From NCBI GenBank assembly GCA_044347205.1, contig JBIIXT010000001.1, positions 12,988 to 76,987 of the forward strand: a stretch of DNA of 64,000 bases, written 5' to 3'. The position numbers and the translations under genes were made by a program. The notes under the pieces were generated by a model. That model had not been told where the DNA came from and made no database searches. It saw only the letters and a list, made by a program, of their open reading frames with translations. How positions within the stretch are numbered: the first letter of the stretch is position 1; each line of letters begins with the position of its first letter. This DNA is from Candidatus Nanopelagicus sp. Lineage in GTDB: Bacteria > Actinomycetota > Actinomycetes > Nanopelagicales > Nanopelagicaceae. Below are positions 19,720-28,469 of this stretch, piece by piece.

Positions 19720-20400
19720 CTGTACTCTCGCCTGACCGAGCAACTCGGAATTTCGGTTAAGGATGAGTTGTTACAACTTGCACTAACTCACCGCTCATTT
19801 TCATATGAAGCTGGTGGCTTACCTACCAATGAACGCATGGAGTTTCTTGGGGATGCCGTTCTTGGCCTAGTTGTTACCGATGAACTTTATGAAAAATTTC
19901 CTGAATTAGATGAAAGTCGATTAAGTCCGCTTCGATCCGGTGTTGTAAATATGCGCGCCCTTGCTCAAGTAGCACGCGAAATTAATTTAGGTGAGTATTT
20001 AAGAATTGGTAAAGGTGAAGAATCAACAAATGGCCGAGATAAGAATTCAATCTTGGCTGACTCACTTGAAGCATTGGTGGGCGCAATTTATCTAGAGCAT
20101 GGATATTTAAAGAGCGCAGAGGTTATTTTAAGATTACTTGGTCCATTAATTGATGCTGCTCAAACTTCTGGGGCAGCACTTGATGGCAAAACTGCATTGC
20201 AAGAGTTAGCTGCATCAATTGGTCTATCTGCACCAGAGTATGAAATTGGTGAGTCAGGCCCAGATCATGATAAAAGTTTTACCGCAATCGCAATTTTAAG
20301 CGGTGAGCGGTTTCCGCAAGGTTTGGGCAAGAGCAAGCGAGAAGCGGAGCAGGCAGCAGCAAAATTAGCGCATGATGTGTTAGCAAGCCGCAGTAAGTAG
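19720..20400 (+). CDS. rnc: Ribonuclease III (probable CTG start)
   Basis: ALTHRS, NERMEFLGDAVLG signature, dsRBD with GPDHDKSF; frame opens at CTG 19720. Confidence 0.95.
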   Translation: MYSRLTEQLGISVKDELLQLALTHRSFSYEAGGLPTNERMEFLGDAVLGLVVTDELYEKFPELDESRLSPLRSGVVNMRALAQVAREINLGEYLRIGKGEESTNGRDKNSILADSLEALVGAIYLEHGYLKSAEVILRLLGPLIDAAQTSGAALDGKTALQELAASIGLSAPEYEIGESGPDHDKSFTAIAILSGERFPQGLGKSKREAEQAAAKLAHDVLASRSK

Positions 20401-21289: not shown

Positions 21290-24200
21290 ATGTATTTGAA
21301 GAGTATGAACCTTAAGGGATTCAAATCCTTTGCCTCTTCTACCACCTTAAATTTTGAACCTGGCATCACCTGTGTGGTTGGTCCAAATGGTTCCGGAAAA
21401 TCAAATGTGGTCGATGCCCTCTCTTGGGTAATGGGAGAGCAGGGCGCTAAATCATTACGAGGCGGAAAAATGGAGGATGTTATTTTCGCCGGCACCAGTG
21501 GCCGTGCTCCACTTGGTCGCGCTGAGGTTTCAGTAACAATTGATAACGCCGATGGCGTTCTACCAATTGATTTTGCAGAAGTAACAATTACTCGTGTGTT
21601 ATTTCGCAATGGCTCATCGGAGTATCAATTAAATGGTGAGACAACGAGATTACTTGATATTCAAGAGTTGCTTAGTGATAGCGGTATTGGCCGGGAGATG
21701 CATGTAATCGTTGGTCAAGGCCAGCTCGATGCAATCTTGCTTGCAAACCCCGAGGAGCGCAGAGCTTTTATTGAAGAGGCAGCGGGAGTACTTAAGCATC
21801 GAAAGCGTAAAGAGAAGGCAATTCGCAAATTAGACTCAATGCAAACCAATTTGGCACGTATTCAAGATCTAACAGTTGAATTACGCAGGCAATTAAAACC
21901 ACTTGGCAAACAAGCCGAAGTTGCTCGCAAAGCATCAGTAATTCAATCTGATGTGCGTGATGCAAAGCTGCGGTTATTAGCTGATGATTTAATAACTTTA
22001 AAGAACTCCTTCAGCGTGGATGAGGCGGATGAGAACTCATTACGCGCTCGCAAAGAATCAGTTGAAGCTGAGTTAGAGGCTATGAGGTTGCGGGAGGAAG
22101 AGTTAGATCGAAACTCAGCAACTGAGAACCCACTTCTAGTTAAAGCACAAGAGAATTTTTATCGATTAACTGCCCAACGCGAGAAGTTTCGTGGCGTGCA
22201 GAATTTATCTTCAGAGCGTGCAAGATTTTTATCAGAGGAGGCGGAGGAGGCTAGATCTGCCGGCCGCGATCCAGAGGCATTAGATAGTGAAGCAAAAATT
22301 CTGCGTGAGCAGCAACAAGGATTTGAACGTGAATTAAATGCAGCAAAATCGCAATTATCTCTTGATACAACAGCGTTAGAAGAGATTGAAGAAAACTTAT
22401 CATTAGAAGAGAGTTCTGTATCAGCATCACTACGAGCAATTGCAGATCAGCGCGAAGGAACTGCTCGACAAGAGGGACACATAAATGGATTAAAGGCGAG
22501 AATTGATGCAACTAATGCAGAGGTAACTCGATTAACTACCTCACTTAATCAAGCTAACTCCAGATTAAAAGGGTATCAAGAAGATTTTGCATTACTTGAA
22601 ACTCAGATTGCAAGTGTTGGTGCGTCAGAGCCTGGCTTGGACTCTCAATTTGAAAATGCAAAAAATGAGTTAGCAAGTGCACAAAAGTTTTTTGACCAAG
22701 TTAAGGAGCGACGAGATGCGGCTGAAAAATTACGTGCCGGCTCACTTGGTCGCCTATCAGCTTTTAAAGAGATTATTGAGCTAGTTCGCAGTTCAGCTAA
22801 TGCCGAACTAATTGCAAAGATTCAATCTCTAACTACTGATTCTGAAGGTGAAGCTAGTAAATTATCCGCTGATTGTGACCGGATTAAATTTGAAATTACC
22901 TCTGCCCAAGATCAAATTGCGCAAAATCAATCTCATTATGATCAGGTTCTGGCGAAACTAAATGAGTCTGATGCACGGATGAATGGCCTAGCTGAGCAGA
23001 TGGCAGTTGCTGGTCAAAACGTTAAGAGTGCGCAAGGTGAAATAGAGCGGCTTGCTTCATCAATTACTGAGGCAACTACTCAACGCACCTCAGATGAGCG
23101 AGATTTAACTGCAGCGATTTCACAATTTGAATCACAAAGTGAACCACGGGAACCAGATTTAACTCACCTTGAAGATTTGCGAACAAAAGTTTCAAATGCG
23201 CGCTCCAAAGAGGTTGAATCTAGATTACATCTGCGCACAGTTGAAGAGAGAATCACTGCAATTTCACAACGTGCCCAAGCACTAGAAGATGCCGCGCAAA
23301 GTGAGCGAGATTCAGCAAGCAAGGCGGTCTCTCGAAGAGATGCTCGCGCAAAGGCGGCAATTACAGCGCAACAAATTGCAGATGCCGCATATGAAGCATT
23401 AATCCAAATCGAATCCTCGATCTTAAGAGCGGGCGCTGAACGCGAGCGATTAGAGCAAGCCAGAGCCGAGCGTGAGGGTGAAATATTAAGTATTCGTGGC
23501 AGCAGTCGAGAGTTAGCAACTGAACTTGAGCGGTTAACTTCTAGTGTTCATAAAGATGAGATTGCTCGCGCAGAACAGCGACTTCGTATTGAACAATTAG
23601 AGATTAAAACGGTGGAGGAGCTTGGCGTGGATGTGGTCACCCTTGTTTCTGAGTATGGGCCAAGTAATGATGTGCCAACATTTATTGAAAATGAAGAGGG
23701 AGAGTTTGTTCCTGGTGAGTTAATTCCATACCGCCGAGATCAACAAGAGAAACGATTAGCCCAAGCAGAGCGTTCATTGACCTTACTTGGCAAGATTAAT
23801 CCGCTAGCACTTGAGGAGTACTCCTCACTTGAAGAGCGACTACGTTACTTAGCTGAGCAGCTAGAGGATTTGAAAAAGACTAAGCGAGATTTACTTGAGA
23901 TCATCAAAGAGGTTGATGATCGAGTGCAGCAGATATTTACCCAAGCATATGAAGATACCGCCCGTGAGTTTGAGCTAGTTTTTGCAAGATTATTCCCAGG
24001 TGGTGATGGTCGATTAATTTTAACTAATCCATCCGATATGTTGACATCTGGAGTTGATGTTGAAGCACGACCACCAGGAAAGCGCGTAAAGCGGTTATCA
24101 CTTCTATCAGGTGGTGAGCGATCATTAGTTGCAGTTGCATTGTTAATCGCAATTTTCAAAGCCAGACCTTCACCATTTTACGTAATGGATGAGGTTGAAG

Positions 24201-24397
24201 CAGCACTTGATGATACAAACCTGGGTAGATTACTTGGCGTATTTGAAGAGCTACGAGAGAAATCTCAATTAATTATTATTACCCACCAAAAGCGAACAAT
24301 GGAGATTGCCGATGCACTTTACGGAGTAACCATGCGCGGTGATGGCGTATCAGAGGTTATCTCCCAACGTATTCGCGAAGTTGATGCAGTTTCTTAA
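21290..24397 (+). CDS. smc: Chromosome segregation protein SMC (apparently hinge-less)
   Basis: GFKSFA, GPNGSGKSN Walker A, GQGQ Q-loop, LSGGE signature, VMDEVEAALD Walker B/D-loop, ITHQKRTM; mutM-smc-ftsY context. Confidence 0.95.
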   Translation: MYLKSMNLKGFKSFASSTTLNFEPGITCVVGPNGSGKSNVVDALSWVMGEQGAKSLRGGKMEDVIFAGTSGRAPLGRAEVSVTIDNADGVLPIDFAEVTITRVLFRNGSSEYQLNGETTRLLDIQELLSDSGIGREMHVIVGQGQLDAILLANPEERRAFIEEAAGVLKHRKRKEKAIRKLDSMQTNLARIQDLTVELRRQLKPLGKQAEVARKASVIQSDVRDAKLRLLADDLITLKNSFSVDEADENSLRARKESVEAELEAMRLREEELDRNSATENPLLVKAQENFYRLTAQREKFRGVQNLSSERARFLSEEAEEARSAGRDPEALDSEAKILREQQQGFERELNAAKSQLSLDTTALEEIEENLSLEESSVSASLRAIADQREGTARQEGHINGLKARIDATNAEVTRLTTSLNQANSRLKGYQEDFALLETQIASVGASEPGLDSQFENAKNELASAQKFFDQVKERRDAAEKLRAGSLGRLSAFKEIIELVRSSANAELIAKIQSLTTDSEGEASKLSADCDRIKFEITSAQDQIAQNQSHYDQVLAKLNESDARMNGLAEQMAVAGQNVKSAQGEIERLASSITEATTQRTSDERDLTAAISQFESQSEPREPDLTHLEDLRTKVSNARSKEVESRLHLRTVEERITAISQRAQALEDAAQSERDSASKAVSRRDARAKAAITAQQIADAAYEALIQIESSILRAGAERERLEQARAEREGEILSIRGSSRELATELERLTSSVHKDEIARAEQRLRIEQLEIKTVEELGVDVVTLVSEYGPSNDVPTFIENEEGEFVPGELIPYRRDQQEKRLAQAERSLTLLGKINPLALEEYSSLEERLRYLAEQLEDLKKTKRDLLEIIKEVDDRVQQIFTQAYEDTAREFELVFARLFPGGDGRLILTNPSDMLTSGVDVEARPPGKRVKRLSLLSGGERSLVAVALLIAIFKARPSPFYVMDEVEAALDDTNLGRLLGVFEELREKSQLIIITHQKRTMEIADALYGVTMRGDGVSEVISQRIREVDAVS

Positions 24398-24407
24398 AGT
24401 TTTATAG

Positions 24408-25244
24408 ATGAGTTTGTTTAAGCGTTTATTTAACGCAGTTAAAAGTGGAACACTTACCCAAGCAGATTGGGATGAAATCCGTAGTAATTTAATTGACTCA
24501 GATCTGGGCGTTAAATTAGTTGATGAAGTCATTGCCATCGCCAAGGCCAGTAAACCAGATGATGCCCAGCGCGCGATCTCTGATGAAATCAGGAGTTGGC
24601 TAAGTGCAAAATCTAGAGAGATTGCTGCGCCAAGTGATAGTTTAACTCCGATTTTATTAGTTGGCGTTAATGGAGTTGGTAAAACAACAACTTGTGCAAA
24701 AATAGCAAATTTATTACAAAAAAATAATTACAGCGTTAAGTTAGCCGCAGCAGATACATTCAGGGCCGCAGCAGTTGAACAGTTGCAAAGCTGGGGGCAG
24801 CGCTTAAATATTGAGGTGGTTTCTGGCAAAGCCAATAGTGATCCAGCCTCAGTTGTATTTGAGGCTACAACCTCGGCCATTGCAGCAAATTGTGATTACC
24901 TAATCATTGATACTGCCGGAAGATTACATACCAAGCAGGGATTAATGGATGAGCTGGGTAAAGTAATTCGAGTGGTCGAAAAACAACAGCCGGTTAAAGA
25001 GATTTTATTGGTAATTGATGCAACAACTGGTCAAAATGGAATTAATCAGGCACTTACATTCATTGAAGCGGTGAATGTGACTGGTTTTATTATCACTAAA
25101 TTAGATGGCAGCGCTAAAGGCGCGATTGCATTGGCAATTGAGCGAAGGAGCGGGTTACCCATTAAATTCATTGGAACCGGGGAGCAGGTAGGGGACTTGC
25201 AAGCATTTGATCCCGAGCAGTTCATCGGCTCACTTTTTACGTAA
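24408..25244 (+). CDS. ftsY: SRP receptor FtsY (NG domain only)
   Basis: GVNGVGKTTT, DTFRAAA, DTAGR, TKLDGSAKG. Confidence 0.95.
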   Translation: MSLFKRLFNAVKSGTLTQADWDEIRSNLIDSDLGVKLVDEVIAIAKASKPDDAQRAISDEIRSWLSAKSREIAAPSDSLTPILLVGVNGVGKTTTCAKIANLLQKNNYSVKLAAADTFRAAAVEQLQSWGQRLNIEVVSGKANSDPASVVFEATTSAIAANCDYLIIDTAGRLHTKQGLMDELGKVIRVVEKQQPVKEILLVIDATTGQNGINQALTFIEAVNVTGFIITKLDGSAKGAIALAIERRSGLPIKFIGTGEQVGDLQAFDPEQFIGSLFT

Positions 25245-25287: not shown

Positions 25288-25379
25288 CATTTAAGCCAGA
25301 GGTTGTAATCCACTAAAGCCAAAATTTGCCCTATCTCAATGAGGAGAGATTTCTAGAAATTGGATTAGGTGGAAATTTC

Positions 25380-27019
<1,640 letters not shown>

Positions 27020-27038
27020 CTTAAGTAAGATACCGACC

Positions 27039-28469
27039 ATGTTTGAATCGCTAGGTCAGAAACTCTCGAAAGTATTTTCTGGCCTACGCGGCAAAGTAAA
27101 TGAAACAGATTTAAAGAATTTTGCAGCTGAGATCAAAGTAGCATTACTAGAATCTGATGTAGCCCAATCGGTGGCAGATAATTTTGCCAATCAAATCTTA
27201 AAAATTGCGCAAGAGCGATCTGATGAGATAAATAAATCAACAAATCCGGCGCAGAAAATATTTGAAATTGTTAATGCTCAATTAACTCAAACCTTGGGTG
27301 GTTCAGCCAGGCGCTTGCGCCATGCTAAAACTGGGCCAACGGTTATTTTACTTACCGGTTTACAGGGAGCTGGAAAAACCTCACTAGCTGGAAAATTAGC
27401 GAAGTATTTAAAGGATCAAGGAAATACACCATTACTAGTTGCATCTGATCTACAGCGATTAAATGCAGTTACACAATTACAAATTGTCGGACAATCAATC
27501 TCTGTCCCGGTATTTGCACCTGAACCAGGCAATGGTGTTGGTGATCCCGTTAAAGTGGCGAAGACGGGTGTGCAATTTGCTAAGGATAAAGTACACAACT
27601 TTGTAATTGTTGATACCGCCGGTCGGACAGGTATTGATCAAGAGTTAATGCAACAGGCGATCAAGGTCCGAGATGCCATTTCACCAGATGAAACTCTCTT
27701 TGTAGTTGATGCAATGATTGGTCAAGATGCAGTCAGAACCGCACAAGCCTTCTCCGAAGGCGTTGGCTTTGATGCAATAGTTTTAACGAAATTAGATGGT
27801 GATGCACGAGGTGGCGCCGCACTTTCCATCGTTGAGTTAACTGGTAAACCAATAATTTTCGTAGCAACGGGTGAGAAAGTTTCTGAGTTTGATCTTTTCT
27901 ACCCAGATCGCATGGCTTCTCGAATTTTGGGTATGGGAGATGTTGCCTCCTTAGCTGAACAAGCAAAGCGCTCAATGTCTAGTGATACAGCGGCAAAGCT
28001 AGAGCAGAAATTTGCTAGTGGTGATGATTTCACCTTTGAAGATTTTCTATCTCAACTTGAGGCGATGAAGAGCATGGGAAGTATGAGCAAGTTAATGGGC
28101 TTACTGCCGGGCTCTGGTGCGATGAAGAAGCAAATGGAAAATTTTGATGAGAGTGAATTAGTTAAAACAAGGGCAATTATTGAATCAATGACGCCACTTG
28201 AAAGAGCAGATCCAAAAGTTTTAAATGGTTCTAGGCGAGCAAGAATTTCACGGGGTAGCGGTAGAGCAATTAGTGAGATCAATTCATTAGTTGAAAGATT
28301 TAGTGGAGCGCAAAAAATGATGAAACAGATGCGAAATGGTGGGATGCCAGCCATGGGCGGCATGGGTGGATTAGGAAGTATGCCAAAAGCGATAAAAAAT
28401 AATCCACCGCCAAAGAAGAAATCCAGATCTGGAAATCCAGCAAAGCGGGCAGCAGAGGAAGGTAGCTGA
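27039..28469 (+). CDS. ffh: Signal recognition particle protein
   Basis: MFESL start, GLQGAGKT, DTAGR, TKLDGDARGGAALS, Met-rich M domain. Confidence 0.97.
   Translation: MFESLGQKLSKVFSGLRGKVNETDLKNFAAEIKVALLESDVAQSVADNFANQILKIAQERSDEINKSTNPAQKIFEIVNAQLTQTLGGSARRLRHAKTGPTVILLTGLQGAGKTSLAGKLAKYLKDQGNTPLLVASDLQRLNAVTQLQIVGQSISVPVFAPEPGNGVGDPVKVAKTGVQFAKDKVHNFVIVDTAGRTGIDQELMQQAIKVRDAISPDETLFVVDAMIGQDAVRTAQAFSEGVGFDAIVLTKLDGDARGGAALSIVELTGKPIIFVATGEKVSEFDLFYPDRMASRILGMGDVASLAEQAKRSMSSDTAAKLEQKFASGDDFTFEDFLSQLEAMKSMGSMSKLMGLLPGSGAMKKQMENFDESELVKTRAIIESMTPLERADPKVLNGSRRARISRGSGRAISEINSLVERFSGAQKMMKQMRNGGMPAMGGMGGLGSMPKAIKNNPPPKKKSRSGNPAKRAAEEGS

What the first reader, a model, noticed from the sequence alone, without database searches (positions are those of the whole stretch)
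21290..24397. SMC that appears to have lost its entire hinge domain
Seen: all ATPase head motifs are intact and the gene sits in the usual mutM-smc-ftsY locus, but it is only 1035 aa. At the midpoint (about aa 480-530, nt 22730-22880) the coiled coil runs ...AEKLRAGSLGRLSAFKEIIELVRSSANAELIAKIQSLTTDSEGEASKLSADC... and resumes heptad-like sequence. There is no globular alpha/beta segment, no Gly-rich hinge motif (the only GG pairs are in the head regions) and no CxxC zinc hook. The two arms are of similar length around this point. Known: bacterial SMCs are about 1150-1200 aa and dimerise through a roughly 150-aa central hinge with a GX6GX3GG-type motif, needed to close the ring; the shortfall here matches one hinge. 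Inference: this is a naturally hinge-less condensin that either dimerises through the coiled-coil apex (as RecN does) or works as an open, head-joined complex. That would be a minimal SMC and a natural test of hinge-dependent loop-extrusion models. Best candidate for an undescribed system in this window.
Basis: partly seen in the sequence, partly recalled or inferred. Interest (0 to 1): 0.9.

Follow-up and report, generated by a model that had tools for sequence, protein, structure and literature searches.

The report
Hinge-less SMC of freshwater Nanopelagicus
The chromosome-organising SMC protein of this tiny freshwater actinobacterium (Candidatus Nanopelagicus) has truly lost its central hinge while keeping full-length arms, working ATPase heads and its partner proteins. 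Close relatives still carry the hinge, so the pair is a well-matched natural test of what the hinge is for, although hinge-less SMCs as such were already reported in 2025.

Summary
Observation confirmed. The ORF at 21290-24397 is an intact 1035-aa Smc orthologue. It scores 777 bits on TIGR02168 (cut-off 567) and sits in rnc-mutM-smc-ftsY. All ATPase motifs are present, and there is no SMC_hinge match, no CxxC and no Gly-rich motif. About 147 residues, exactly the hinge, are missing.

It is not an assembly artefact. Every genome searched in the genus that held the gene, three of them closed, and a second genus carry the same gapless 1035-aa form. So do about 970 proteins from independent metagenome assemblies. 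Sixteen other genera of Nanopelagicaceae keep the hinge. In the gene tree the hinge-less sequences form one nested clade, which fits a single loss.

The gene is under strong purifying selection (dN/dS 0.02-0.09). ScpA, ScpB and ParB are present, and no separate hinge gene was found.

The apex is modelled as a plain helical hairpin. A 21-residue segment beside it (aa 479-499) is nearly invariant only in the hinge-less clade. A homodimer model places it on the two-fold axis (ipSAE 0.56, best control 0.36).

Novelty is limited. A 2025 paper (PMC12153180) described hinge-less actinobacterial SMCs. I found more in other Actinomycetota families, and this scan noted them earlier in CPR, DPANN and SAR86 DNA.

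The parts
21290..24397 (+). smc: intact 1035-aa hinge-less Smc orthologue (stop codon included)
   Evidence: ORF. (SMC_N 1.5e-70, no PF06470). (TIGR02168 777 bits, cut-off 567, in two stretches). (nested in the Nanopelagicaceae Smc tree).
21290..21784 (+). N-terminal half of the ATPase head (aa 1-165), with Walker A at aa 31-38 (nt 21380-21403) and the Q-loop at aa 142
   Evidence: motifs. (almost every residue invariant in 28 sequences). (dN/dS about 0.015).
21785..22786 (+). N-terminal arm helix (aa 166-499)
   Evidence: helices up to 499, pLDDT 75-92 for aa 330-499. (no indels in 28 sequences).
22724..22786 (+). Conserved apex segment, aa 479-499 (EKLRAGSLGRLSAFKEIIELV), with the small-residue ridge A483/G484/G487/A491
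   Evidence: pairwise identity 0.85 in the hinge-less clade against 0.42 in hinge-bearing kin; flanks 0.42-0.53. (lowest-error homodimer contacts 483:483, 487:487, 491:491).
22772..22816 (+). Junction where the hinge used to be: aa 495-509, all that lies between the two arm segments that align to hinge-bearing Smc. The modelled turn is aa 500-504 (nt 22787-22801).
   Evidence: gap of about 146-149 residues around these 15 aa. (loop 500-504 between H450-499 and H505-614). (loop poorly conserved, 0.47).
22802..23869 (+). C-terminal arm helix (aa 505-860), with a second conserved patch at aa 528-536 (DCDRIKFEI, nt 22871-22897)
   Evidence: (0.86 against 0.51 in hinge-bearing kin).
23870..24394 (+). 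C-terminal half of the ATPase head (aa 861-1035): signature LSGGE at aa 939 (nt 24104-24118), Walker B at aa 963-968 (nt 24176-24193), D-loop, H-loop
20410..21249 (+). mutM (Fpg), upstream neighbour; rnc lies at 19768-20400
24408..25244 (+). ftsY (short, 278 aa), downstream neighbour: the usual smc-ftsY arrangement

Best explanation
Shown: this is the orthologous Smc of the Smc-ScpAB condensin of Candidatus Nanopelagicus. In the common ancestor of this genus and one neighbouring genus the roughly 147-residue hinge domain was removed. What remains is two full-length arm helices joined by a five-residue turn. The gene has since been kept under strong purifying selection, with heads, arm length, ScpA, ScpB and ParB all intact.

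Inferred: the complex still works as a chromosome-organising, ParB-loaded Smc-ScpAB. The hinge's one indispensable job, holding two Smc together at the far end of the arms, has passed to direct packing of the two coiled-coil tips. The N-helix segment 479-499 carries an Ala/Gly ridge (A483, G484, G487, A491) and new Leu at 481 and 486. It pairs in parallel, in register, with the same segment of the second subunit. Together with the returning C-helices (aa 510-518) this makes a four-helix bundle that extends the usual arm-to-arm 'rod' contacts. ScpA then bridges the two heads as in ordinary Smc.

The apex joint would be non-covalent and possibly weaker than a hinge, so it may open more easily. 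Whether that matters for DNA entrapment is unknown.
For: Real and fixed:
- Identical gapless 1035-aa architecture in 17 other genomes of the genus plus genus g25, three of them closed genomes.
- About 970 independent database proteins share the apex, and none of the 120 listed has PF06470.
- In the family scan the hinge is present in 16 of 18 genera. It was found in 0 of 13 genomes of genus g1 (0 of 14 with the window's own genome) and 0 of 2 of g25.
- The hinge-less sequences form one clade (SH-aLRT 100), nested among hinge-bearing genera.

Functional:
- dN/dS is 0.02-0.09 overall, about 0.015 in the heads and 0.03-0.15 in the arms.
- There is no indel in 28 sequences down to 73% identity.
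- All ATPase motifs are intact.
- ScpA, ScpB and ParB are present.
- No hinge is encoded elsewhere in the three closed genomes.

Apex:
- AlphaFold2 gives a helix, a 5-residue loop and a helix with pLDDT 83-92, and no globular domain.
- Segment 479-499 is a conserved island only in the hinge-less clade (0.85 against 0.42). Residues that differ from the usual ones of hinge-bearing kin and are uniform in the clade are E481L, N/S483A, A/S484G, E486L, S487G and L492F.
- The homodimer model of aa 380-620 scores 0.56 against a best control of 0.36. That mark was reached by 20 of 30 proteins solved as pairs of one chain and by 1 of 23 solved as single chains. The runs agree in at least 97% of contacts and the partner's pLDDT is at least 86. 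The lowest-error contacts are 483:483, 487:487, 491:491, 484:484 and 488:488.

Literature:
- The B. subtilis hinge can be replaced by an unrelated dimerisation domain, the Rad50 zinc hook (PMC5344682).
- Arm-arm contacts contribute to dimerisation of hinge-less Smc (PMC5526789).
Against: No experiment exists, so dimerisation rests on one structure-prediction job.
- Its margin over the best control is exactly the minimum (+0.20).
- It used my own shallow alignment of 23 rows.
- Its result may partly reflect the predictor's memory of solved SMC rod fragments. Truncated coiled coils also tend to be laid side by side.

In B. subtilis, abolishing hinge dimerisation gives non-functional Smc (PMC5344682). 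A purely coiled-coil joint therefore has to be shown to be strong enough.

Positions 487 and 491 are already small in hinge-bearing relatives, so part of the motif predates the loss.

The full-length AlphaFold2 model is poor outside the apex (mean pLDDT 62, heads below 50).

Function in chromosome organisation is inferred from conservation and partners, not observed.
Confidence: 0.55

Rival explanations
1. Head-joined, open-ended complex. The two Smc are held together only by ATP-engaged heads and the ScpA bridge. The arm tips do not bind each other stably, so the Smc compartment is open at the far end and the complex acts as a clamp or translocase using only the kleisin compartment.
For: ScpA and ScpB are retained and could in principle bridge two heads. 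The margin of the dimer model is minimal. The hairpin loop itself is poorly conserved.
Against: This does not explain why aa 479-499 and 528-536 became nearly invariant only after hinge loss, or why arm length is indel-free. Loss of hinge dimerisation inactivates B. subtilis Smc (PMC5344682). The model's most confident contacts are at the tip.
Confidence: 0.25
2. A different protein supplies the closure in trans. An unrecognised partner binds the conserved apex segment and links two arms, or links the arm to something else.
For: The conserved island at 479-499 and 528-536 would equally fit a partner-binding site.
Against: No PF06470 domain occurs anywhere in the three closed genomes or in the family-scan genomes of the two genera. 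These genomes are about 1.2 Mb and streamlined. No candidate was identified, and no clade-specific gene search was done.
Confidence: 0.08
3. Repurposed or weakened Smc. The protein is retained for a reduced or different role and no longer extrudes loops or aligns chromosome arms. A 1.2-Mb chromosome in a slow-growing cell might need little condensin activity.
For: The hinge-less clade has the smallest genomes of the family: 1.2 Mb closed, against 1.3-1.5 Mb in sister genera. By earlier notes of this scan, hinge loss recurs in other small-genome lineages.
Against: Heads, arms and partners are under purifying selection as strong as expected for a working machine. Other genera with 1.2-1.3 Mb genomes keep the hinge.
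Confidence: 0.1
4. Assembly or binning artefact: about 450 bp missing from this assembly only.
For: None found. The genome is a 92-contig draft.
Against: The same form is in three closed genomes, 14 further draft genomes of the genus, a second genus and about 970 independent database proteins. Divergence runs from 73 to 93% and there are no frame disruptions.
Confidence: 0.01

Closest known systems
Canonical bacterial Smc of Smc-ScpAB (B. subtilis type; NCBIfam TIGR02168), and in particular the hinge-bearing Smc of sister Nanopelagicaceae genera (about 1180 aa)
   Same: Orthologous by tree and synteny. It is 73-82% identical to the sister genus in the flanks. It has the same head motifs, the same arm length, and the same partners ScpA, ScpB and ParB.
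   Different: The whole hinge of about 147 aa, including the Gly-rich dimerisation motif, is absent. The hinge-proximal coiled coil has become nearly invariant and carries new Leu, Ala and Gly residues.
'Hinge-less' SMC cluster from ocean metagenomes, assigned to Actinobacteria (Environ Microbiome 2025, PMC12153180)
   Same: [quoted passage not shown] It is actinobacterial, abundant in plankton, and not co-encoded with a regular Smc.
   Different: That cluster is marine, branches near the base of the actinobacterial sequences, and its host lineage was left unresolved. The present one is freshwater and nested deep inside a hinge-bearing family, so it most likely represents a separate loss. I could not compare the sequences directly because none are held in the supplements.
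Hinge-less Smc orthologues of other Actinomycetota families found here (unnamed family f22, 1019-1027 aa; Candidatus Humimicrobiaceae/Humimicrobiia, 747-885 aa; others 792-935 aa)
   Same: They pass the TIGR02168 cut-off, have no PF06470, and the profile's hinge positions are skipped. The f22 form has the same overall length and is collinear with this protein at 39-40% identity.
   Different: They belong to other classes of the phylum, and most have shortened arms as well. They are only 37-53% identical to this protein, against 60-82% for hinge-bearing members of the family, so this loss is independent of theirs.
Engineered B. subtilis Smc(Zh), hinge replaced by the Rad50 zinc hook (Burmann et al. 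2017, PMC5344682)
   Same: It shows that the hinge fold itself is dispensable if the arm tips are still joined.
   Different: Here no foreign dimerisation domain was inserted and there is no Cys pair. Any joint must be made by the coiled coil itself.
RecN and Rad50/SbcC (SMC-like proteins without a hinge)
   Same: ABC-type heads plus an antiparallel coiled coil ending without a hinge domain.
   Different: RecN scores 55.9 bits against a cut-off of 408, and the Rad50 models fall far below their cut-offs. A separate RecN exists in this genome. There is no zinc hook. The predicted pairing is parallel and side by side. My recollection that RecN pairs end to end through its coiled coil was not tested here.

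Membership tests
Bacterial Smc of Smc-ScpAB (TIGR02168 / Pfam SMC_N + SMC_hinge) | ABC-type ATPase head with Walker A, Q-loop, signature LSGGE, Walker B, D-loop and H-loop | tested here: met
   (all motifs). (SMC_N 1.5e-70).
Bacterial Smc of Smc-ScpAB (TIGR02168 / Pfam SMC_N + SMC_hinge) | Whole-protein score above the curated equivalog cut-off | tested here: met
   777 bits against a cut-off of 567.35, in two stretches that skip profile positions from about 505 to 668.
Bacterial Smc of Smc-ScpAB (TIGR02168 / Pfam SMC_N + SMC_hinge) | Long intramolecular antiparallel coiled-coil arm of about 330-350 residues per strand | tested here: met
   (helices 154-499 and 505-901 with the usual breaks). 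(arms align end to end with those of hinge-bearing kin).
Bacterial Smc of Smc-ScpAB (TIGR02168 / Pfam SMC_N + SMC_hinge) | Central globular hinge domain (PF06470) with a Gly-rich dimerisation motif | tested here: not met
   (no hit at E<=1). (gap of about 147 aa). (a 5-residue loop). (no solved hinge matched), with positive control.
Bacterial Smc of Smc-ScpAB (TIGR02168 / Pfam SMC_N + SMC_hinge) | Orthology: position in the Smc tree and the conserved smc-ftsY neighbourhood | tested here: met
   (nested in Nanopelagicaceae Smc). (rnc-mutM-smc-ftsY).
Bacterial Smc of Smc-ScpAB (TIGR02168 / Pfam SMC_N + SMC_hinge) | Kleisin ScpA and kite ScpB encoded in the genome, and the ParB loader present | tested here: met
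   (own genome). (closed genomes of the genus and g25).
Bacterial Smc of Smc-ScpAB (TIGR02168 / Pfam SMC_N + SMC_hinge) | Forms a homodimer closed at the end of the arms and entraps or extrudes DNA | not testable with these tools
   There is only a model: ipSAE 0.56 against a best control of 0.36.
Hinge-less SMC as described in PMC12153180 | SMC-type heads and coiled coil, no hinge, no CxxC zinc hook, the only Smc in its genome, actinobacterial | tested here: met
   single Smc per genome; the other SMC_N protein is RecN; organism.
Hinge-less SMC as described in PMC12153180 | Belongs to the same monophyletic (marine) clade | not testable with these tools
   The paper's sequences are not held. 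Nesting inside freshwater Nanopelagicaceae argues for a separate origin.
RecN | Score above the TIGR00634 cut-off; short coiled coil; about 550 aa | tested here: not met
   (55.9 bits against 407.85). A separate 573-aa RecN-like gene lies next to pyrG.
Rad50/SbcC | CxxC zinc hook at the coiled-coil apex | tested here: not met
   (Cys only at 28 and 529). (Rad50 models far below their cut-offs).

The most novel reading that the evidence does not exclude
After the hinge was lost, the arm tip of Nanopelagicus Smc evolved into a dimerisation device of its own: an Ala/Gly-ridge four-helix bundle made only of coiled coil. That would be a third natural way, besides the hinge and the zinc hook, to close an SMC dimer. 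Hinge-bearing orthologues with 73-82% identical flanks exist in sister genera. The pair would therefore allow clean swap experiments on whether a hinge is needed for loading, entrapment and loop extrusion.
Probability: 0.4. Interest if true: 0.75.

Novelty: new member of a known kind. Interest (0 to 1): 0.58.

Why it matters
The hinge is treated as a defining and essential part of SMC complexes. It is held to give constitutive dimerisation, DNA binding and, in some models, a DNA gate.

Here a very abundant freshwater bacterium has done without it for a long time. Synonymous sites are saturated between the deep branches of the clade, while arms, heads and partners stayed unchanged. Its nearest relatives keep the hinge. 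That gives a closely matched natural hinge-plus and hinge-minus pair, which the deep-branching or half-length hinge-less SMCs of other lineages do not offer.

It also shows that hinge loss is recurrent in Actinomycetota: 87 of the 401 genomes sampled had no hinge domain. This deserves a systematic survey.

In practice these proteins are often annotated only as 'AAA family ATPase' or even 'RecF'.

Tried and rejected
- Assembly artefact: rejected.
- Separately encoded hinge: searched with PF06470 in the window's own genome, three closed genomes and the family. None was found in the two hinge-less genera.
- Second condensin: the only other SMC_N protein seen is a 573-aa RecN next to pyrG. I did not search specifically for MksB or MukB.
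- Remnant of the hinge: MAFFT places the 15 residues 495-509 against a mid-hinge helix of relatives. The segment is short and poorly conserved, and I did not test the match against shuffles, so I do not claim homology.
- Sequence search of the central 331 aa against solved structures: only generic coiled coils.
- Full-length AlphaFold2 model: heads came out below pLDDT 50 with the shallow 28-row alignment. I used it for the apex only and ran no fold search on it.
- Mapping the predicted contact residues onto the B. subtilis cross-linking site T495C, which is listed in the strain table of PMC5344682: not done, because no B. subtilis arm sequence was in hand.
- Identifying the host of the published marine cluster: the paper and its supplements give no lineage or sequences. 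NCBI places Candidatus Actinomarina in class Actinomycetes, which makes it a candidate host only.
- Literature: no paper holds both 'Nanopelagicus' and 'SMC'.
- Unpublished genomes: tallies include genomes flagged as unpublished (G024, G276, G322, G362, G580, G598). The f22 count of 0 of 26 and the 1027-aa example rest partly on G276 and G322. The 1019-aa f22 example (G366) and all Nanopelagicaceae claims do not.
Full report
**Observation.** The ORF at 21290-24397 (+) is uninterrupted and encodes 1035 aa. The neighbours are rnc and mutM upstream and a short ftsY downstream.

Pfam finds one SMC_N match spanning aa 2-1021 and no SMC_hinge (PF06470), even at E<=1. NCBIfam's Smc equivalog TIGR02168 scores 777 bits (cut-off 567) in two stretches. 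The first covers aa 2-501 against profile positions 1-505, and the second resumes near profile position 668.

All head motifs are present. There are only two cysteines (28, 529), no CxxC, and GG pairs only in the heads.

**Organism.** The window lies in a 1.05-Mb, 92-contig, 86.7%-complete genome with about 44% G+C. Record titles and source names of the closest relatives identify it as Candidatus Nanopelagicus, family Nanopelagicaceae.

**The gap is real and old.**
- Of the 18 other genomes of the genus first searched, 17 hold a collinear full-length match to aa 1-1035 at 78-93% identity, in open frames of 1036-1047 codons; in the 18th the gene is split over contigs. Three of them are single-contig genomes of 1.2 Mb.
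- A second genus of the family (g25) has the same 1035-aa protein at 73% identity.
- Twenty-eight such sequences align without a single gap.
- About 970 proteins in the 5.8-billion-cluster collection share this apex. They come from ENA, JGI, NCBI and Logan assemblies and are about 1030-1035 aa long. None of the 120 listed carries PF06470.
- In a family scan, the hinge HMM hit 131 of 150 other genomes and 16 of 18 genera. It hit 0 of 13 other genomes of this genus and 0 of 2 of g25. The few other misses are draft genomes of genera that otherwise have the hinge.
- The order-level scan gave the same picture: single collinear matches only in these two genera and split matches in about 1180-aa frames everywhere else.

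**What exactly is missing.** I aligned the protein to ten hinge-bearing Smc from ten other genera of the family (1178-1183 aa). The gap of about 146-149 residues lies between aa 494 and about 510 and removes the complete hinge, including the RDGD...RGGS glycine motif. The coiled-coil strands on both sides align residue for residue, so arm length is unchanged.

As a positive control, the central region of the sister genus's Smc matches solved hinge structures (5h69, 4rsj, 4rsi, 1gxl). The central 331 aa of this protein match only generic coiled coils.

**One loss.** I built a maximum-likelihood tree of 35 Smc sequences with the hinge columns removed. The eight hinge-less sequences form one clade (SH-aLRT 100). 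It is nested inside hinge-bearing Nanopelagicaceae, next to genus g28, which includes actinobacterium SCGC AAA044-D11. One change of state suffices. This is a gene tree from a quick search, and g25 falls within or beside g1 with weak support.

**Still a working gene.**
- Pairwise dN/dS is 0.02-0.09 for the whole gene, about 0.015 for both head halves and 0.03-0.15 for the arms.
- dS is at or near saturation between the deep branches of the clade, so the hinge-less state has persisted for a long time.
- ScpA and ScpB are adjacent on contig C14 of the same genome, and ParB is present.
- ScpA and ScpB are also in the three closed genomes and in g25.
- No hinge domain is encoded anywhere else in those closed genomes.
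- The only other SMC_N protein seen is a 573-aa RecN next to pyrG.

**The apex.**
- *Monomer model.* The full-length AlphaFold2 model is poor for the heads (mean pLDDT 62) but confident for aa 330-610 (block means 75-93). It shows helix 450-499, a loop at 500-504 and helix 505-614. This is a plain helical hairpin with no globular element.
- *Conservation.* The loop is variable, but the segment just before it is not. Mean pairwise identity in aa 479-499 is 0.85 in the hinge-less clade against 0.42-0.53 in its flanks. In hinge-bearing relatives the same columns score 0.42, no better than their flanks. A second patch at aa 528-536 behaves the same way (0.86 against 0.51).
- *Substitutions.* Residues that are uniform in the clade and differ from the commonest ones of hinge-bearing kin are E481L, N/S483A, A/S484G, L485S, E486L, S487G and L492F. 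The constraint on this segment is therefore specific to the hinge-less clade.
- *Homodimer model.* A prediction for two copies of aa 380-620 reached the tool's mark with a score of 0.56 against a best control of 0.36. That mark was reached by 20 of 30 proteins solved as pairs of one chain and by 1 of 23 solved as single chains. The runs agree in at least 97% of contacts and pLDDT is 87. The lowest-error contacts are 483:483, 487:487, 491:491, 484:484 and 488:488. That pattern means parallel, in-register packing of the two N-helices on the two-fold axis, with the C-helix (510-518) alongside and further contacts down the arms (385-421, 565-598).
- *Caveats.* The margin is the minimum allowed, the alignment was my own, and solved SMC rod fragments may have been memorised. 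This supports binding but does not show it.

**Mechanism.** My best reading is a normal ParB-loaded Smc-ScpAB. In it the far-end closure is made by a coiled-coil four-helix bundle at the tips, extending the arm-to-arm rod contacts of ordinary Smc.

Published work makes this plausible. In B. subtilis, loss of hinge dimerisation inactivates Smc, but the hinge can be replaced by the unrelated Rad50 zinc hook (PMC5344682). Arm contacts contribute to dimerisation of hinge-less Smc (PMC5526789).

The main rival is a complex joined only at the heads. It does not explain the new constraint at the tip. A trans-acting apex partner and a reduced or changed function cannot be excluded.

**Comparison with what is known.** The finding is not the first of its kind.
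- A 2025 paper described an abundant 'hinge-less' SMC cluster from ocean metagenomes. It was assigned to Actinobacteria, has no CxxC, and its host lineage was left unresolved (PMC12153180).
- In a sample of 401 Actinomycetota genomes, 87 had no hinge match.
- Spot checks in six such families found Smc orthologues of 747-1027 aa. The five I scanned pass the TIGR02168 cut-off and lack PF06470. Among the families are Candidatus Humimicrobiaceae/Humimicrobiia and an unnamed family with a collinear 1019-1027-aa form.
- Earlier notes of this scan report hinge-less Smc in Patescibacteria, DPANN archaea (with zinc hooks) and SAR86. I did not test those.
- The Nanopelagicus case is a separate loss. Its flanks are 60-82% identical to hinge-bearing family members and only 37-53% identical to the other hinge-less forms.

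Three things are particular to it. The arms are full length, the excision removed the hinge alone, and closely related hinge-bearing orthologues exist. I found no paper that mentions SMC together with Nanopelagicus.

**Verdict.** It is a new member of a recently described kind, of moderate to high interest as a matched natural experiment.

Noticed in passing
phylum scan, (loci L135-L141): 87 of 401 sampled Actinomycetota genomes have no SMC_hinge match. Whole families lack it: f22 0 of 26, f33 (Candidatus Humimicrobiaceae) 0 of 29, f41 0 of 3. Spot checks found Smc orthologues of 747-1027 aa; the five I scanned pass the TIGR02168 cut-off. Hinge loss, often with arm shortening, looks recurrent in the phylum.
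   Followed up: partly
window 24408-25244: FtsY is only 278 aa, with an SRP54 GTPase domain and a truncated N domain (Pfam SRP54_N matched only over aa 3-46). It has no acidic A domain, another sign of streamlining beside the shortened smc.
   Followed up: no
window 25326-28469: amt-glnB(PII)-ffh are contiguous. The ffh start (GTG 26994) overlaps the end of glnB by 26 nt, and no glnD lies between them, unlike the amtB-glnK-glnD arrangement I recall from many actinobacteria.
   Followed up: no
(database names of the hinge-less proteins): The same hinge-less Smc is variously named 'chromosome segregation SMC family protein', 'AAA family ATPase' and 'recombination protein RecF' by the sources. 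Automatic annotation is inconsistent for this form.
   Followed up: no
L139 (G366:C1), protein P0125, aa about 478-505: The hinge-less Smc of the unrelated family f22 has a similar segment just before its hairpin (QRAAADARVEAFEQVEALF). It shares R482, A483, R488, A491, F492 and L498 with the Nanopelagicus apex. This may be the ancestral hinge-proximal coiled coil or convergence.
   Followed up: no
G000:C87 (L126 917-2638): A 573-aa SMC_N protein (RecN-like) lies immediately upstream of pyrG (CTP synthase). It is the only other SMC-type ATPase seen in this genome.
   Followed up: partly
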